From positions 12,152,001 through 12,216,000 of the forward strand of contig OX597816.1 in the NCBI GenBank assembly GCA_951406725.2: a stretch of DNA of 64,000 bases. Direction: 5' to 3'. Within the stretch, counting starts at the first letter, position 1, and each line of letters begins with the position of its first letter. A program made the position numbers and the translations under genes. The notes below the pieces were generated by a model. It ran no database searches, was not told the DNA's origin, and saw nothing but the letters and a program-made list of their open reading frames with translations. This DNA comes from Octopus vulgaris. Its lineage: Eukaryota. Positions 4,081 through 52,270 of this stretch are shown piece after piece.

Positions 4081-4169
4081 GGGCATACACGTGTTTCGGT
4101 GAAATGCTGAAATAATTACATTAAGTTGAAGCATTACGAAATCATATAAATTTACCTCATCAGTGTTCC
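4081..4169 (-). ncRNA. Type I hammerhead ribozyme motif with long stem II
   Basis: Minus strand: aca-CTGATGA-GGTAAA...TTTCACC-GAAAC-ACGT-GTA-tgc. Core complete; palindromic stem III ACACGTGT; stem I partly mismatched. Confidence 0.7.
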
Positions 4170-4421
4170 TTATCATATACATATGCATACATACATACAC
4201 ACATACACAGATGCATACACTTATACACATACATACATACATACATACATACATACACATATATATATACATACATACGTATGTATATATATATATATAT
4301 AAGTCCAAGAATAGAAGTTATGGAATTAACATTTAATATTCCATTACAGTCATTTCGATAATGCCTGCTCCCAATCCATGACTATAGATATGTATATAAA
4401 TATAAAAGATTGTGCAAAATA

Positions 4422-4900
4422 TTCTTTTCTACTCTAGGCACAAGGCCCGAAACTTTTGGGGAGTGGGGCAGTCGATTAGATCAACCCAAGTATGCAACTG
4501 GTACTTAATTTATTGACCCTGAAAGGATGAAAGGCAAAATCGACATTGGTGGAATTTGAACTCTAATGTAAAGACAGACGAAATACTGCTAAGCATTTCA
4601 CCCAGCATGCTAATGCTTCTGCCAGCTCACCACCTTAAACATATATATCTATAGTTACGAATGTATGTATATAGTTATAAATGTATACATTTATAACTGT
4701 CGAGCTGGCAGAAATGTTAGCATACCAGGCAAAATACTTAGTGGTATTTCATCTGTCTTTATGTTCTGAGTTCAAATTCTGCTGAGGTCGACTTTACCTT
4801 TCATCCCTTCAGGGTCAATAAATTAAGTACCAGTTGCGCACTGAGGTTGATCTAATCGACTGGCCTCCTCCTCCAAAAATTCCAGGTCTTATGTCTAGAG
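4422..4900. mobile_element. Two SINE family A copies in opposite orientation
   Basis: Minus copy ~4422-4637 and plus copy ~4699-4900, both with the alternative tail AAATTTCAGGCCTTGTGCCTAGAGTAGAAAAG. Confidence 0.85.
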
Positions 4901-5509
4901 TTTGGAGGCACATGGCCTAGTGGTTAGAGCAGTGGACTCACGGTCAAGAGATCGCGGGTTCGAATCTCAGACCGGGCGATGTGTGTGTTTATGGGCATCC
5001 TTCATCCGATTGCGCTGAAATTTGATATGTCGATACCGATGGTATCAGGGCGTGTATAAATCTTGAAAAAGTTACAAAAATCGATTCCAGGTGAGAATGC
5101 GATCGATAAAGCCGTTTTTGTCCTGCTTTTCTTCCGTCAACCTGTACATAACTGCACCTTCCATTTTTTGTTGTTTTTGTACTGCTTAAAGGCACGTTTC
5201 TTTCCTGCCAAGCTTACTATTTAAACCATGTTTGTGTTCTCCCAGTCAACACCCTTATCATTACTGGTACTTTAAACTCTTCGGTTGCACATTTGTGTGA
5301 ATAAAATCGTTTTTCTTTGGAATAGAAAAAAAGTCTATCTTTATTTCTTCTTTTGCTGGTGTCTCAAATTTAGGTTAAATCAGTGTTTCTCAAAAGGGAA
5401 GCCAATGGGACGGTCGGACAAGTTGTTTTGAGAAAATTTGGTTTAAATGTTTGACAACTCAGCACCGTCCATTGGGCGGGTGGCGTTTTGCTCGTATATA
5501 TATATACGT

Positions 5510-7858
5510 TACATGCACCTCTGGTTAAGTCGTTACGACTTATGTTATTTCCAAAGATACGTCGGTCTTTCTAAAATATTAAATAAATATTAAATCCAGT
5601 ATTAATTTATGTCGCCTGGCAAAACAGCAACAACGTTCATACTATTACTATACTGTGTTGTTAGTTCCGGGTTGTAACACTTGGTTCCGTTCGTATTCGT
5701 CTCCAGGAAATAAATAAAAAAAAAAGCAATAGAAACATATAATGTGTAGCATATTAAAATTAATGCTAAAATACAGAATGCATCTTTGATCCCGAGCCTC
5801 GTCGTTTTACGATGAAGAAAATGCAAGAGGCTTTTTCTCATTTAGATAAATGTCTTGTTTTATTTGAGGAAATGGAACCCAATGTACAACGTTTTGTAAA
5901 AATATTGGCAGTTTATCATGATGCTATTGCACTTTATTACTTAACCTTAGGAGAGAAGAAGCAAAAGACAATTTAAGGAACTTCAGGCAGGATCACCCTA
6001 CGATCAAAATTACCCAACGGTCTACACCATGACAACAGGATACAGCTGACAATCTCCAACCATCGACATCTAGTGTGTAATTTCCCCATCCTCCTACACC
6101 AGCCTCAATGAGTAGCACCGACTTCAGCCATCAGTACAGTGTTTGAAATTATTTCTTTCCGTCAAACTAAAGTGGGAGTGTGGCACCCCTCAGTTTCATG
6201 TCTGTAGGAGAAGGTTACTCTGACATAAAAGCAGATATGCAGGGAATGGCATTGGACAGACCATAGTCTGGTGCGAGCAAACTTCCAGATGATGATTAGA
6301 GTAAAAGGAGGGGAGAGGGCCAGTCAGCATTCCTCGGCTTCTGAATGTCCCCGAAATATATGATGCTGTGGTGAGGAAAGAGCTTCTGAAGTGGAAATTG
6401 ATGAGACGGTTATCGTAAGGAGAAAATACAATCGTAGAAGACTTGTAAAAACTATTTGGCTTTTCGGTGGAATGGAACGAGGAACGAAAAAGGAACTTTT
6501 GATACCTCTTTCATCTGAGTGTGGCGAAAATGAAAGGCGAGATGCCGCTACACTCATCCAATTAATTACTCGCCATATACGCCAAGGGTCCAAAATATAT
6601 AATAATTCTTGGGCTGCATATAATTCTCTGGGAAATCTTGGCTATACCCACTTTCAGGTCAACCACAGCGGAAATTTTGTACATCCTACAAACGCGTCGG
6701 TGCACACTCAGACAATATTTTTCTTTTATGCACAACTCCATTGTCTCCTGAGATGAAAGGATGCCAACAACGATATATGCCAAAAAATGGACCACATACT
6801 CGGGTATGTATAGATTATTCTCAAAACAATTTCTGTAATTTCATTGTAGTAGCATAAGATTATGTTTGAGAATGTTTTCTGACACACGGTTTCTGTTTTA
6901 TTTTTGCATATATTCCACCGCTTCATCGTAGAAAACTTCTGAAACTATATATATATATGCAAGACAGAAAATATATATTTATAAGGACTTGTTGATTATA
7001 CCCAAAAATGGACTGCTTGTTTATACCCAAGAAATGGACTTGTTTATACATAAGAAATGGACTTGCTGTTTGTACTCAAGAAATGTGCAACGCACAGGTT
7101 ATAATAATTATTTCTATAACATAACAATTTAAAGGTATGTTAAAAAGAATTTATTTTAATACCGCGAACTGTCTGCATAAAGAATTTTTAAAAATGAAAA
7201 AGAGTGGCAAGTTGTGTAAATAGGGGCCAGGGTAAGATTGAATATTTAAGAGAATTTGCAGCGTGTAAGATGTTTGTAAGCAATTCCAGAACAACAAAAG
7301 CCGTTACTTTCACTGCAAAACTTAAATTTCGTTTGTGTTTAAATATTTTCGGTCTTTGAAACCATGGCAAACCTCTGACAAAAACTCGTGCTGCATCTCT
7401 TTTGTCAGTGAACAAGTCTCGGTTTCAAAGAGACCAAAAATATTGACATTGAAATGAGATTTAAATATTGCAGTGAACCAACCTTTTTTCTTTGTGTGTG
7501 TTCTTGATAATCGTTTAGAACAAGTAGTTTTACACCAATTACACTATTTTTTTCTTCTTTTCCCGGTTCGGGTCAAAACTATAGTTTAAAGGCCATGGAC
7601 TGACGATATGAATTTTCCGAGTCCTCTCCCCCACCGCCCTTTCGCGAGTGCGCATTTTTTTGTCATATTCGTTTAGAGCAAGTTGTTTTACACCTATCAC
7701 ATTATTTTTCTTTTGTTTTTGTGCTCGGGGTCAAACGCCTAGGTTTTAATTATTACATGTCTATACATTCAAATAATGGTTATTTCGACTTGAGTCGTTT
7801 TGCGACTTTAAGTTGTGTCCTCTGGAACCAATTAACGACGTAGGGTGAGGTATGATTG
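5510..7858 (+). mobile_element. Tigger/pogo-like DNA transposon remnant hosting nested insertions
   Basis: Both ends carry CGACTT-rich Tigger-like termini. ~5870-5970 reads EMEPNVQRFVKILAVYHDAIALYYLTLGEKKQKT, like a Tigger transposase C-terminus. Confidence 0.5.
6355..6760 (+). pseudogene. Merlin-superfamily (IS1595/ISXO2-like) DDE transposase fragment
   Basis: ORF 6391-6756: VEIDET..RRKYNR.R....WLFGGMER...DAATL..LI..HI..GS.IY..SWAAY..L...GY.H..VNHS.NFV.P...HTQTI, matching Merlin/IS1595 motifs. Second catalytic Asp lost and C-terminus disrupted. Confidence 0.85.
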
Positions 7859-51000: not shown

Positions 51001-52057
51001 ATGTATGTATATGTATGTATATATATGTATATATATATATGTATGTATGTATATGTGGAGGCACGTGGCTTAGTGGTTAGTGTCTGAGCATCATGATCAT
51101 AAGGTTGTGGTTTCGATTCCTAGACCAGGCGACGCGTTGTGTTCTTGAGCAAAACACTTCATTTCACGTTTGAGCAAAACACTTCATTTCCAGTCCACTC
51201 AGCTGGCAAAAATGAGTAACGCTGCGATGGACTGGCGTCCCATCCAGCTGCAGAACACATTCGTCATAGAAACTGGAAAACCAGGCCCATGAGCCTGGCT
51301 AGGCTTTAAAAAGGGCACATTTATGTTTTATTTTATATATGTATATATATGTGTGTTAGCATTTCTGTGTATATATATATATATATATGTGTGTGTGTGT
51401 GTGTGTGCATTTCTATGTATATATATTTATTTTCATGTGACTATATGTATATATGAATGAATAAATATATATAAATGTATAAGTGACAATGTGGCTGTGT
51501 GGTAAGAAATTTGTATCTAACCCACAAGATTCTGGGTTCAGTCATACTGCATGGTACCATGGGCAAGTGTCTTCTACTTCAGCCTCAGGTCAATGAAAAC
51601 TATGAGAATGGATTTGGTAGACAGAAACTGAAAGAAGCCTATCGTATATGTGTGTATGTTTGTGTGTGTGTGTCTTTGTCTGTGTCTTTGTCTGCCCTAC
51701 AAGATGTTAGCTGACAATTAAGGGGGCTGGCCACTAGCAAACCATTGATAATGAAATAGGGGAAATCTTATCATGTAGTACTATAGTTAAATATTTTAAA
51801 CAATATTGCCATATTGCATAAAGTGAAAGATTAGGGTAATTCAGAAGATTATTAAGAATATAGCAAAAGGATGAAAAGTTTTTTGAATACTTTTGAGTAT
51901 ATAGCAAACTTTTACCACAATAGAGGGAGGAAAAGAAATTATCTAGAAATACATATTATATACTTAAATACATATATACTTAAATACTAACTTATCAGAT
52001 GGTATCTGTGTATATTGATCAATTGGTATATACTGGTATTTAATAAATGCAAATACA

Positions 52058-52182
52058 TATATCCTTTTTCCAGTGACGAAAAGTCACTTTTCTCGTAAAA
52101 GTGTAAACAAGCGATAAATCAATTATTGCTTGTTTACACTTTTTCGAGACCAGTGATTTTTCATCACTGGAAAAAGGATATA
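52058..52182. repeat. ~60 bp-arm imperfect palindrome
   Basis: TATATCCTTTTTCCAGTGACGAAAAGTCAC...AAGCGATAA / TTATTGCTT...GTGATTTTTCATCACTGGAAAAAGGATATA. Confidence 0.85.
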
Positions 52183-52227
52183 TGAAGTTGCATTGGAACC
52201 CCTTCGCATCGAAGACTGGTGATTGTT

Positions 52228-52270
52228 GTGCGCTGACAACGGGTAAATACCCAGAAACCCATGTCTGTAC
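52228..52270 (+). ncRNA. Type I hammerhead motif with one core mutation
   Basis: GTGCG-CTGACAA-c-GGGT-aaat-ACCC-a-GAAAC-ccat-GTC-TGTAC; G8 replaced by A. Confidence 0.6.

What the first reader, a model, noticed from the sequence alone, without database searches (positions are those of the whole stretch)
4081..52270. Many unrelated minimal hammerhead ribozymes in short, microsatellite-bounded non-coding modules
Seen: about a dozen type I HHR motifs (stem I-CUGANGA-stem II-GAAA-short stem III-UH-stem I') with different stem sequences, at 4081(-), 25325(-), 30853(-), 32408(-)/34243(+), 33992(+), 36127(+), 39088(-), 39791(+), 42506(+), 42747(+), 44980(-) and 52228(+). Most lie in 150-450 bp modules between (TA)n/(TACA)n tracts. 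Stem sequences differ while pairing and core are kept, which argues for selection on structure. Established: minimal HHRs with tiny palindromic stem III occur in Penelope-like element (PLE) terminal repeats and retrozymes and can cleave as dimers. Inference: this genome hosts a large, diverse population of non-autonomous ribozyme retroelements (about one per 5 kb here), with no PLE ORF in the window.
Basis: partly seen in the sequence, partly recalled or inferred. Interest (0 to 1): 0.85.

Follow-up and report, generated by a model that had tools for sequence, protein, structure and literature searches.

The report
tRNA-headed hammerhead SINE among Penelope tails
This octopus-like DNA is littered with short, mostly mutated hammerhead self-cutting-RNA motifs that are likely the dead tail ends of Penelope-like jumping genes (a known pattern), but one very abundant family carries a tRNA-type promoter head and is likely a SINE copied by Penelope enzymes, a pairing not found in the papers searched.

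Summary
The motifs are real. All 13 listed sites hold a hammerhead-shaped core; I count 18 in 14 families. Three pass a strict scan against 0.03 in shuffles. Most are decayed: 6 of 13 have a core substitution and 33992 lacks stem I. The modules have Penelope-like element (PLE) 3'-end anatomy: core about 70-210 nt from the end, (TA)n targets, and head-to-head inversions with a one-sided tail in 5 of 5 pairs examined. No PLE ORF is in the window. This matches published PLE minimal hammerheads, not retrozymes. Individual copies show no selection (core 5/44 against 47/504 differences). The new part is family A (five window copies, about 300 nt): A/B-box head, (AAT)n, hammerhead, optional tail. Sequencing contigs show fixed 5' and twin 3' ends, head-joined inversions, a majority G10.1-C11.1 pair and roughly 10^5 copies (rough). 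It is likely a Pol III SINE mobilised by a PLE, copied from uncleaved RNA. The partner PLE, Pol III transcription and cleavage are untested.

The parts
25236..25537 (-). Family A, full-length copy (about 300 nt): tRNA-type head, (AAT)n, body with minimal hammerhead, 3' tail
   Evidence: loose-end piles at 25537-39, 25282 and 25234-37
25462..25537 (-). Family A head with type-2 Pol III A box (25521-25531) and B box (25478-25486), 34 nt apart
   Evidence: (exact A box, same spacing as two other SINE heads; 4 hits against 0.1 in shuffles); no Rfam tRNA hit, nor for a control SINE head
25419..25461 (-). (AAT)n linker, internal to family A
   Evidence: present between head and body in 4 of 4 copies that reach it
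25325..25370 (-). Minimal type I hammerhead: stem I 5 bp, extra A at 9/10.1, stem II 6 bp, zero-loop palindromic stem III, N17=U at 25330
   Evidence: majority letter at 25338 restores G10.1-C11.1
25236..25281 (-). Optional 3' tail (about 45 nt); the shorter 3' end lies in the loop of an 8-9 bp stem
20591..20782 (+). Family A copy truncated inside the head (B box kept), tail-less, core hit at A15.1
54323..54844 (.). Family A head-to-head unit: head-bearing copy on - (with tail) joined at its 5' end to a 5'-truncated copy on + (no tail); 9-bp direct repeat at 54314-54322 and 54845-54853
63926..64000 (-). Family A 3' end with tail, cut by the window edge
4079..4170 (-). Hammerhead, intact core, long stem II insert, palindromic stem III, stem I 3 of first 5
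10131..10178 (-).
10243..10286 (+).
30852..30890 (-). Minimal hammerhead, U4C, extra A, zero-loop stem III, weak stem I
32316..32505 (-). Family B module, hammerhead at 32406-32444 with A6U
34186..34385 (+). Family B module, hammerhead at 34242-34279 with A6C
41790..41906 (+). Family B decayed copy, hammerhead partly deleted
33990..34086 (+). Weakest candidate: core and long stem II, stem I not formed
36126..36170 (+). Best-formed solo hammerhead: intact core, stem I 4 bp, stem II 5 bp, near-palindromic stem III, N17=A
39088..39157 (-). Hammerhead, intact core, decayed stems
39791..39852 (+). Hammerhead, intact core, stem I 5 bp, 4-bp stem III
42393..42578 (.). Inverted unit: hammerhead 42502-42548 (+, U4C); left arm carries a one-sided tail of about 75 nt
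42590..42835 (.). Inverted unit: hammerhead 42747-42806 (+) and its truncated inverted twin; one-sided tail of about 60 nt on the left arm
44860..45343 (.). Inverted unit: hammerhead 44979-45024 (-, A9C); one-sided tail of about 50 nt on the right arm
52227..52271 (+). Hammerhead with G8A, stems I and II formed, 140 nt upstream of a (TA)n tract
41095..41375 (.). Hammerhead-less inverted unit with a one-sided tail, related to the 45018 family's end

Best explanation
The motifs are decayed minimal hammerheads that likely mark the 3' ends of many families of Penelope-like retroelement copies, and one family (A) is likely a tRNA-headed SINE that a Penelope-like enzyme would copy from uncut RNA. 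Inferred mechanism: the PLE reverse transcriptase/GIY-YIG protein binds a structured RNA segment just downstream of the hammerhead, nicks AT-rich DNA or (TA)n, and starts cDNA at one of two nearby sites, giving ends with or without the tail. Synthesis usually stops early or turns back, leaving 100-500 nt stubs and head-to-head inversions; stubs long enough include the hammerhead. After insertion the copies decay neutrally (shown for family A). Family A likely arose when a short tRNA-derived unit ending in (AAT)n fused to such a 3' end, supplying an internal Pol III promoter and a fixed 5' end. Cleavage at N17 would cut the promoter from the priming region, so full-length copies must come from uncleaved RNA; the zero-loop stem III and U at N17 predict a weak or silent monomer.
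For: Motif excess over shuffles. Features not forced by the descriptor match published PLE min-HHRs (PMC4209133): extra nucleotide at 9/10.1, G10.1-C11.1 and palindromic stem III in several families. All 18 cores lie about 70-210 nt upstream of the module end as set by eye, like Anolis Poseidon, where priming starts 111-118 nt into an ORF that begins at stem II (PMC11167929). Five of 5 inverted pairs examined have a tail on one arm only, the PLE signature (PMC8557442). Family A: two 3' end piles (25282 and 25234-37, mixed flanks), one 5' pile (25537-39, mixed flanks after about 10 shared letters), opposite-strand joints from body to the head's 5' end (25366-25535 and 25390-25537, 3 contigs each in X11), head-body joints, one contig across the linker, and no depth step at the predicted cut site. 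Heads occur only with the body (3 of 3) and the linker-body junction is fixed in 4 of 4 copies. The 9-bp direct repeat around the 54323-54844 unit has a chance rate of 0.2%. O. vulgaris has 31 recently active PLE families (PMC13282606).
Against: No autonomous PLE sharing any of these ends was found, so the PLE link rests on anatomy. The head gets no Rfam tRNA hit; a control SINE head gets none either. Head depth is only about one sixth of body depth in X11 and X15, lower than the 2 full heads of 4 in the window, so many bodies may come from a headless source. Raw-read run X22 laid only 3 reads of 12.9 million, unexplained and at odds with a very high copy number. Tails of 45-75 nt exceed the published 30-40 nt. 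A target-site repeat was seen at 1 of 3 family A loci inspected. No folded motif had a notable z-score (best -1.55). The two RNA runs are only guessed to be RNA, so transcription is not shown.
Confidence: 0.7

Rival explanations
1. All modules, family A included, are only 5'-truncated ends of full-length PLEs; the tRNA-like head is an old SINE lodged inside the parent's untranslated region and is not a working promoter.
For: No promoter-like head precedes the other 13 families. Head depth is about one sixth of body depth. The A box of the 54444 copy is mutated and its B box is cut. Solo min-HHRs in other animals were read as truncated PLEs (PMC4209133).
Against: Loose ends pile up at the head's first bases and then diverge (agreement 0.45-0.53 in X11 and X15), which truncation of a longer element would not give. 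Inversion joints fall at the same point. Window copies have unrelated sequence upstream of the head.
Confidence: 0.17
2. The modules are retrozyme-like elements that work through active self-cleavage and circular RNA, kept by selection on the ribozyme.
For: Three motifs are nearly intact. The family A majority sequence keeps the core and G10.1-C11.1. Animal retrozymes are proposed PLE dependants and include monomers (10.64898/2026.07.22.740005).
Against: No head-to-tail tandem units were seen. Retrozymes carry canonical motifs in 170-400 nt tandem repeats (PMC7229834). Copies decay neutrally. Copies are not permuted at N17 and depth does not step there. In Anolis Poseidon the hammerhead is not needed for insertion in vitro.
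Confidence: 0.07
3. Head and body are separate elements: a PLE end that targets (AAT)n inserts again and again into the (AAT)n tail of a simple tRNA SINE.
For: PLEs prefer microsatellites, and Anolis Poseidon cuts at ATT. The linker length varies between copies.
Against: The linker-body junction is the same in 4 of 4 copies, no (AAT)n follows the body, no head stands alone (0 of 3), and inversions join body fragments straight to the head's 5' end.
Confidence: 0.04
4. The motifs are chance patterns in AT-rich, hairpin-rich repeats.
For: There is no Rfam hammerhead hit. 33996 and 39150 are weak.
Against: 3 against 0.03 at the strict cut; shared position and flanking anatomy; the family majority letter repairs the canonical pair.
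Confidence: 0.02

Closest known systems
Minimal hammerheads in pseudo-LTRs of metazoan EN+ Penelope-like elements (Cervera and de la Pena 2014, PMC4209133)
   Same: Type I, short stem I, extra nucleotide at 9/10.1, zero-loop or palindromic stem III, many sequence families per genome, mostly solo, some pairs 100-700 bp apart on opposite strands.
   Different: Density here is 1 per 3.6 kb in this window, counting decayed copies, against published genome totals of about 2,000-9,000 descriptor hits. No linked ORF was found. One family has a Pol III-type head.
PLE insertion anatomy: Poseidon of Anolis (PMC11167929); Neptune and Hydra (TA)n targeting, inversion and tail (PMC8557442)
   Same: Hammerhead 70-210 nt upstream of the end, two alternative 3' ends, inverted 5'-truncated twin, one-sided tail, AT-rich or (TA)n targets.
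   Different: Tails are 45-75 nt, not 30-40. Clade cannot be assigned without the protein. Naiads lack canonical hammerheads and are only remnants in cephalopods.
tRNA-derived SINEs, including octopus OK, OR1 and OR2 (Ohshima and Okada 1994, seen only as a cited title; OR2 is a CORE SINE per PMC4758252)
   Same: A and B boxes at tRNA spacing at a fixed 5' end, about 300 nt, non-coding, very high copy number, 5'-truncated copies.
   Different: The simple repeat is internal, not 3'-terminal. The 3' end is PLE-type (hammerhead, two ends, inversions), not a LINE-shared tail. Whether family A is one of the named or database families could not be checked.
Schistosome Sm-alpha and Sj-alpha SINE-like repeats (review PMC6765202)
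   Same: Pol III promoter plus hammerhead in a short non-autonomous repeat.
   Different: Those occur in tandem and cleave multimeric transcripts, with the promoter ending at the 3' side of the cleaved unit. Family A is dispersed or head-to-head, keeps its promoter at the 5' end and has a minimal motif plus a PLE-type tail.
Animal non-LTR retrozymes (PMC7229834; bioRxiv 10.64898/2026.07.22.740005)
   Same: Short, non-coding, type I hammerhead, proposed PLE dependence.
   Different: Retrozymes are head-to-tail tandem repeats that give circular RNA; none was seen here. The 2026 preprint text holds no mention of tRNA or promoter.

Membership tests
Minimal type I hammerhead (PLE type) | CUGANGA and GAAA cores, UH triplet, stems I and II, above chance | tested here: met
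   met for the set, near-intact in 3 of 18 copies
Minimal type I hammerhead (PLE type) | Extra nucleotide at 9/10.1, G10.1-C11.1, palindromic stem III | tested here: met
   present in several families, not all; family A majority letter gives G-C
Minimal type I hammerhead (PLE type) | Self-cleavage as dimer or with protein help | not testable with these tools
   No assay; a two-copy cofold did not give the dimer fold; no raw RNA reads were offered
Penelope-like element 3' ends | Inverted 5'-truncated twin with a tail on one side | tested here: met
   5 of 5 pairs examined; two 3' end piles and inversion joints
Penelope-like element 3' ends | Bias for (TA)n or AT-rich targets | tested here: met
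   11 of 14 non-A cores; family A flanks are AT-rich but not microsatellite
Penelope-like element 3' ends | Shared sequence with an RT and GIY-YIG ORF | tested here: inconclusive
   No PLE domain in the window; three protein searches found no RT-bearing relative; no genome is held
tRNA-derived SINE (family A) | A and B boxes at tRNA spacing at the 5' end | tested here: met
   both boxes pass in 1 of 2 full heads
tRNA-derived SINE (family A) | Recognisable tRNA cloverleaf | tested here: inconclusive
   ARAGORN 0 genes; Rfam none; control SINE head also none
tRNA-derived SINE (family A) | Fixed 5' end, short, non-coding, dispersed at high copy number | tested here: met
   X22 raw reads (3 laid) do not fit the high copy number
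tRNA-derived SINE (family A) | LINE-type 3' end (terminal poly(A) or simple repeat, or LINE-shared tail) | tested here: not met
   The 3' end is two fixed non-repeat points about 45 nt apart; (AAT)n is internal
tRNA-derived SINE (family A) | Pol III transcription | not testable with these tools
   X15 and X16 are contigs only guessed to be RNA
Non-LTR retrozyme | Head-to-tail tandem units of 170-400 nt, each with a hammerhead | tested here: not met
   None among the 18 cores; arrays elsewhere in the genome were not tested
Non-LTR retrozyme | Circular RNA joined at the cleavage site | tested here: inconclusive
   No such joint among the 15 of 33 shown; contigs drop rare forms

The most novel reading that the evidence does not exclude
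Family A is a true Pol III SINE whose partner is a Penelope-like element, not a LINE: a tRNA-derived promoter captured a PLE priming module, minimal hammerhead included, and reached about 10^5 copies in Octopus. It would be a SINE class defined by PLE-type internal priming, and its 130-nt 3' module would be the minimal signal for PLE mobilisation in trans, with the hammerhead fold serving as a protein-binding or gated element and not as a processing ribozyme.
Probability: 0.5. Interest if true: 0.7.

Novelty: new variant of a known kind. Interest (0 to 1): 0.5.

Why it matters
The scattered minimal hammerheads are known PLE debris and matter mainly for annotation: at one per 3.6 kb here they may be a sizeable share of unclassified octopus repeats. 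Family A matters more. SINEs are normally paired with LINEs, and ten paper searches found no tRNA-headed SINE with a PLE-type end. If confirmed, it shows that PLE proteins mobilise Pol III RNAs in trans, and it gives a natural minimal substrate. With tens of thousands of copies or more, it allows a direct test of the open question of what PLE hammerheads do, since cleavage would destroy this element's template.

Tried and rejected
No whole genome is held, so genome-wide counts and partner searches were not possible. Rfam: only microsatellite-driven miRNA-type and other sub-threshold hits in the 150 of 215 rows shown; no hammerhead or tRNA hit in local scans. A first descriptor without the extra A found only 1-4 sites and was replaced. 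Pfam found mariner, Merlin/IS1595 and zf-RVT domains but no RT core, GIY-YIG or other PLE domain: six-frame read-through of 38001-45600, 46131-50720 and 51051-53110, and 248 open frames of 55 aa or more, low-complexity ones dropped, for the rest; short broken remnants outside the regions could be missed. Exact-pattern scans of metagenome and viral contigs found nothing. Protein searches gave three Octopus proteins that carry the family A body as a peptide and none for family B; none has an RT. Folding z-scores were uninformative and the cofold gave no dimer. The strand-swap test is not independent, because candidates were picked partly for pairing; one row (42510) was offset by one base. Lunse et al. 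2017 is not held, so whether U4C, A6C or A6U are tolerated variants was not checked. Rejected: retrozyme (no tandem units), chance pattern, and repeated insertion into SINE tails.

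
Full report
SETTING. The window is 36% G+C, has no tRNA gene and is full of (TA)n tracts and SINEs. A peptide read from one module hits Octopus sinensis and O. bimaculoides proteins at 81-89% identity, so the source is likely an Octopus genome. No whole genome was held. Pfam found only mariner, Merlin/IS1595 and LINE zf-RVT remnants, and no PLE domain.

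OBSERVATION. All 13 listed sites have a hammerhead-shaped arrangement. With at most one core deviation and an optional A between positions 9 and 10.1, 3 sites score 14 or more against a mean of 0.03 in 100 local dinucleotide shuffles, and 6 score 10 or more against 0.38; the reversed sequence gives 0. Six of 13 carry a core substitution, and 33996 has no stem I. Five more cores were found (10173-, 10249+, 20692+, 54444-, 54752+), giving 18 in 14 families, one per 3.6 kb. Taking one copy per family, own strands pair better than swapped strands (stem I 3.9 against 2.0 of 5; stem II 3.5 against 2.2; 0 of 100,000 permutations), but candidates were chosen partly for pairing, so one search is the fair test. 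Rfam gave no hammerhead hit, and folding z-scores were weak.

ANATOMY. Each core lies about 70-210 nt upstream of its module end (ends set by eye). Eleven of 14 non-A cores have a microsatellite within 220 nt on the 3' side against 29% background (threshold set after looking). I aligned five head-to-head pairs (54323-54844, 42393-42578, 42590-42835, 44860-45343, 41095-41375); in 5 of 5 one arm runs further than the other, by about 25-75 nt. An inverted 5'-truncated twin, a one-sided 30-40 nt tail and (TA)n bias are the described PLE insertion pattern (PMC8557442, passages). In Anolis Poseidon the ORF begins at hammerhead stem II, reverse transcription starts internally at two sites that define the tail, the ribozyme needs protein, it is not required for insertion in vitro, and no RNA reads end at its cut site (PMC11167929, parts 1-2 of 4). 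Minimal hammerheads with an extra 9/10.1 nucleotide, G10.1-C11.1 and a palindromic stem III, mostly solo, diverse and weakly active, are published for PLEs across animals (PMC4209133, parts 1-2 of 4). O. vulgaris has 31 recently active PLE families and 893 recently active unclassified SINE families (PMC13282606, parts 1-2 of 3). The bulk of the finding is therefore a known kind in a new host. The link to a PLE protein is inferred from anatomy, not shown.

SELECTION. In four family A copies the 11 core positions differ from the column majority at 5 of 44 cells, and other positions at 47 of 504 (p=0.59). Three of the four copies have a core hit. The between-family compensation reflects the parent elements, not these loci. 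Family B has A6 replaced in 3 of 3 copies, so it is either a natural variant or the offspring of a dead parent; Lunse et al. 2017 was not held.

FAMILY A. Five window copies share one plan: a head, (AAT)n, a body with the hammerhead, and an optional tail. The head at 25462-25537 has an exact A box and a B box 34 nt further on, the spacing of two other SINE heads in the window (4 hits against 0.1 in shuffles), and aligns with those heads. It gets no Rfam tRNA hit, but neither does a control SINE head. Its resemblance to an arginine tRNA is recalled and comes from no call. All 3 heads found are joined to the body, and the linker-body junction is the same in 4 of 4 copies. No other family has an A/B pair upstream (0 of 14 cores).

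Four runs of the 24 listed were laid on 25100-25700 at 80% likeness. X11 (DNA contigs) laid 27,451 records, with summed depth near 3.3 million on the body, 0.4-0.55 million on the head and 10-40 on flanks. The tool warns that this is no copy number. Taken with five copies in 64 kb it suggests about 10^5 copies, if the window is typical and the genome is near 2.8 Gb. X15 and X16 (guessed RNA) show the same shape. X22 (raw DNA, same species label as X1) laid only 3 reads of 12.9 million; I cannot explain this and it counts against. The majority letter at 25338 is G (84-85% in X11 and X15, 59% in X16), which restores G10.1-C11.1. The only other changes listed inside the motif are about 12% CpG-type transitions at 15.2 and 16.2 (18-23% in X16). 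Loose ends pile up at 25282 and 25234-37 with mixed AT-rich flanks, giving two 3' ends about 45 nt apart; the shorter lies in the loop of an 8-9 bp stem. They also pile up at 25537-39, where about 10 shared letters complete a short 5' palindrome and the flanks then diverge (18 rows shown, 514 not shown). Opposite-strand joints link body positions 25366 and 25390 to the head's first bases (3 contigs each), as the window shows at 54590, where the whole inverted unit is framed by a 9-bp direct repeat (0.2% among 16,329 random flank pairs; seen at 1 of 3 loci inspected). Depth does not step at the predicted cut site (3.36, 3.06 and 3.26 million in the three bins around it).

MECHANISM. Shown: the motif excess, the anatomy, the head-body linkage, the fixed ends and neutral decay. 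Inferred: a PLE protein binds the structured region downstream of the hammerhead, nicks AT-rich DNA, primes at one of two internal sites and often aborts or turns back. Family A is inferred to be transcribed from its A/B boxes and copied in trans. A cut at N17 would part the promoter from the priming region, so full-length copies need uncut RNA. The zero-loop stem III and U at N17 predict little monomer activity (established hammerhead knowledge, recalled). The ribozyme fold is most likely carried as part of the recognition module. I put the whole reading at 0.7. The main rival is that family A is a truncated long PLE with an embedded dead SINE head (0.17); the one-in-six head depth favours it and the sharp 5' end does not.

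COMPARISON AND NOVELTY. It works like PLE 3' ends; membership awaits a linked ORF. It is not a retrozyme by the tandem-unit test (PMC7229834, passages; bioRxiv 10.64898/2026.07.22.740005, part 1 of 5 and passages). Family A meets the head and boundary tests of a tRNA SINE and fails the LINE-type 3' end. Schistosome alpha repeats combine a Pol III promoter with a hammerhead but are tandem and cleave multimers (review PMC6765202, passages). [quoted passage not shown] Ten searches turned up no tRNA-headed SINE with a PLE-type end and no survey of octopus hammerheads; the giant squid paper counts 235 Rfam hammerheads (PMC6962438, passages). Also seen as passages: PMC10886601, PMC4758252, PMC3653858 and PMC8967140. 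Ohshima and Okada 1994 was seen only as a cited title. Repbase, Dfam, SINEBase and all supplements were not seen, so family A may already be catalogued under another name. Earlier scan notes report the same PLE-tail reading in other genomes, which lowers the novelty of the general part; they are unchecked leads.

VERDICT. A real feature, mostly known (decayed PLE tails), with one new variant worth follow-up: a likely PLE-driven tRNA SINE. Interest 0.5; the novel case has probability 0.5 and interest 0.7 if true.

Noticed in passing
window 62362-63714 (-): 450-aa open frame, the 3' part of a LINE ORF2 with a zf-RVT domain; L1/Tx1 type by recall; not a PLE.
   Followed up: partly
window 26930-28190 (-) and 42870-44140 (-): Two decayed mariner elements (PF01359, PF17906).
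   Followed up: partly
window 6364-6753 (+): Fragment of a Merlin/IS1595-type transposase (PF12762, E 6.6e-9).
   Followed up: no
P0001, P0003: A 368-aa O. sinensis protein isoform (cysteine-rich, membrane-receptor-like by eye) starts with the family A body read as peptide, and an O. bimaculoides dystrobrevin beta isoform also carries part of it: exonisation or annotation error.
   Followed up: no
window 9990-10455: Two unrelated hammerhead modules back to back, 76 nt apart on opposite strands, inside one TA-bounded unit; one element with two motifs, or two insertions.
   Followed up: partly
window 9922-9979 and 28695-28790: Very short 3' stubs without a hammerhead; the first is 88% identical to the end of the 39796 module, the second is a small inverted unit between (TA)n tracts.
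   Followed up: partly
window 52046-52194: 149-nt near-perfect hairpin (72-nt arms, 89%) just upstream of the 52233 hammerhead; a MITE or the inversion centre of that unit.
   Followed up: no
window 32439, 34247, 41800: Family B has A6 replaced in all three copies (U, C, U); a possible family-wide core variant.
   Followed up: partly
window 17040-18010: Tandem array of five or six units of about 190 nt of another abundant repeat, with inverted partners at 18480-18666 and elsewhere; no hammerhead was found in it.
   Followed up: no
window 8715-8990 and 9440-9740: A local direct duplication of about 300 nt, seen by eye.
   Followed up: no
window 50190-50250 and 49590-49770: Further short repeat modules with a partial hammerhead-like look (GAAAC with a flanking stem, or a CUGAAGA half core); not scored by the scan.
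   Followed up: no
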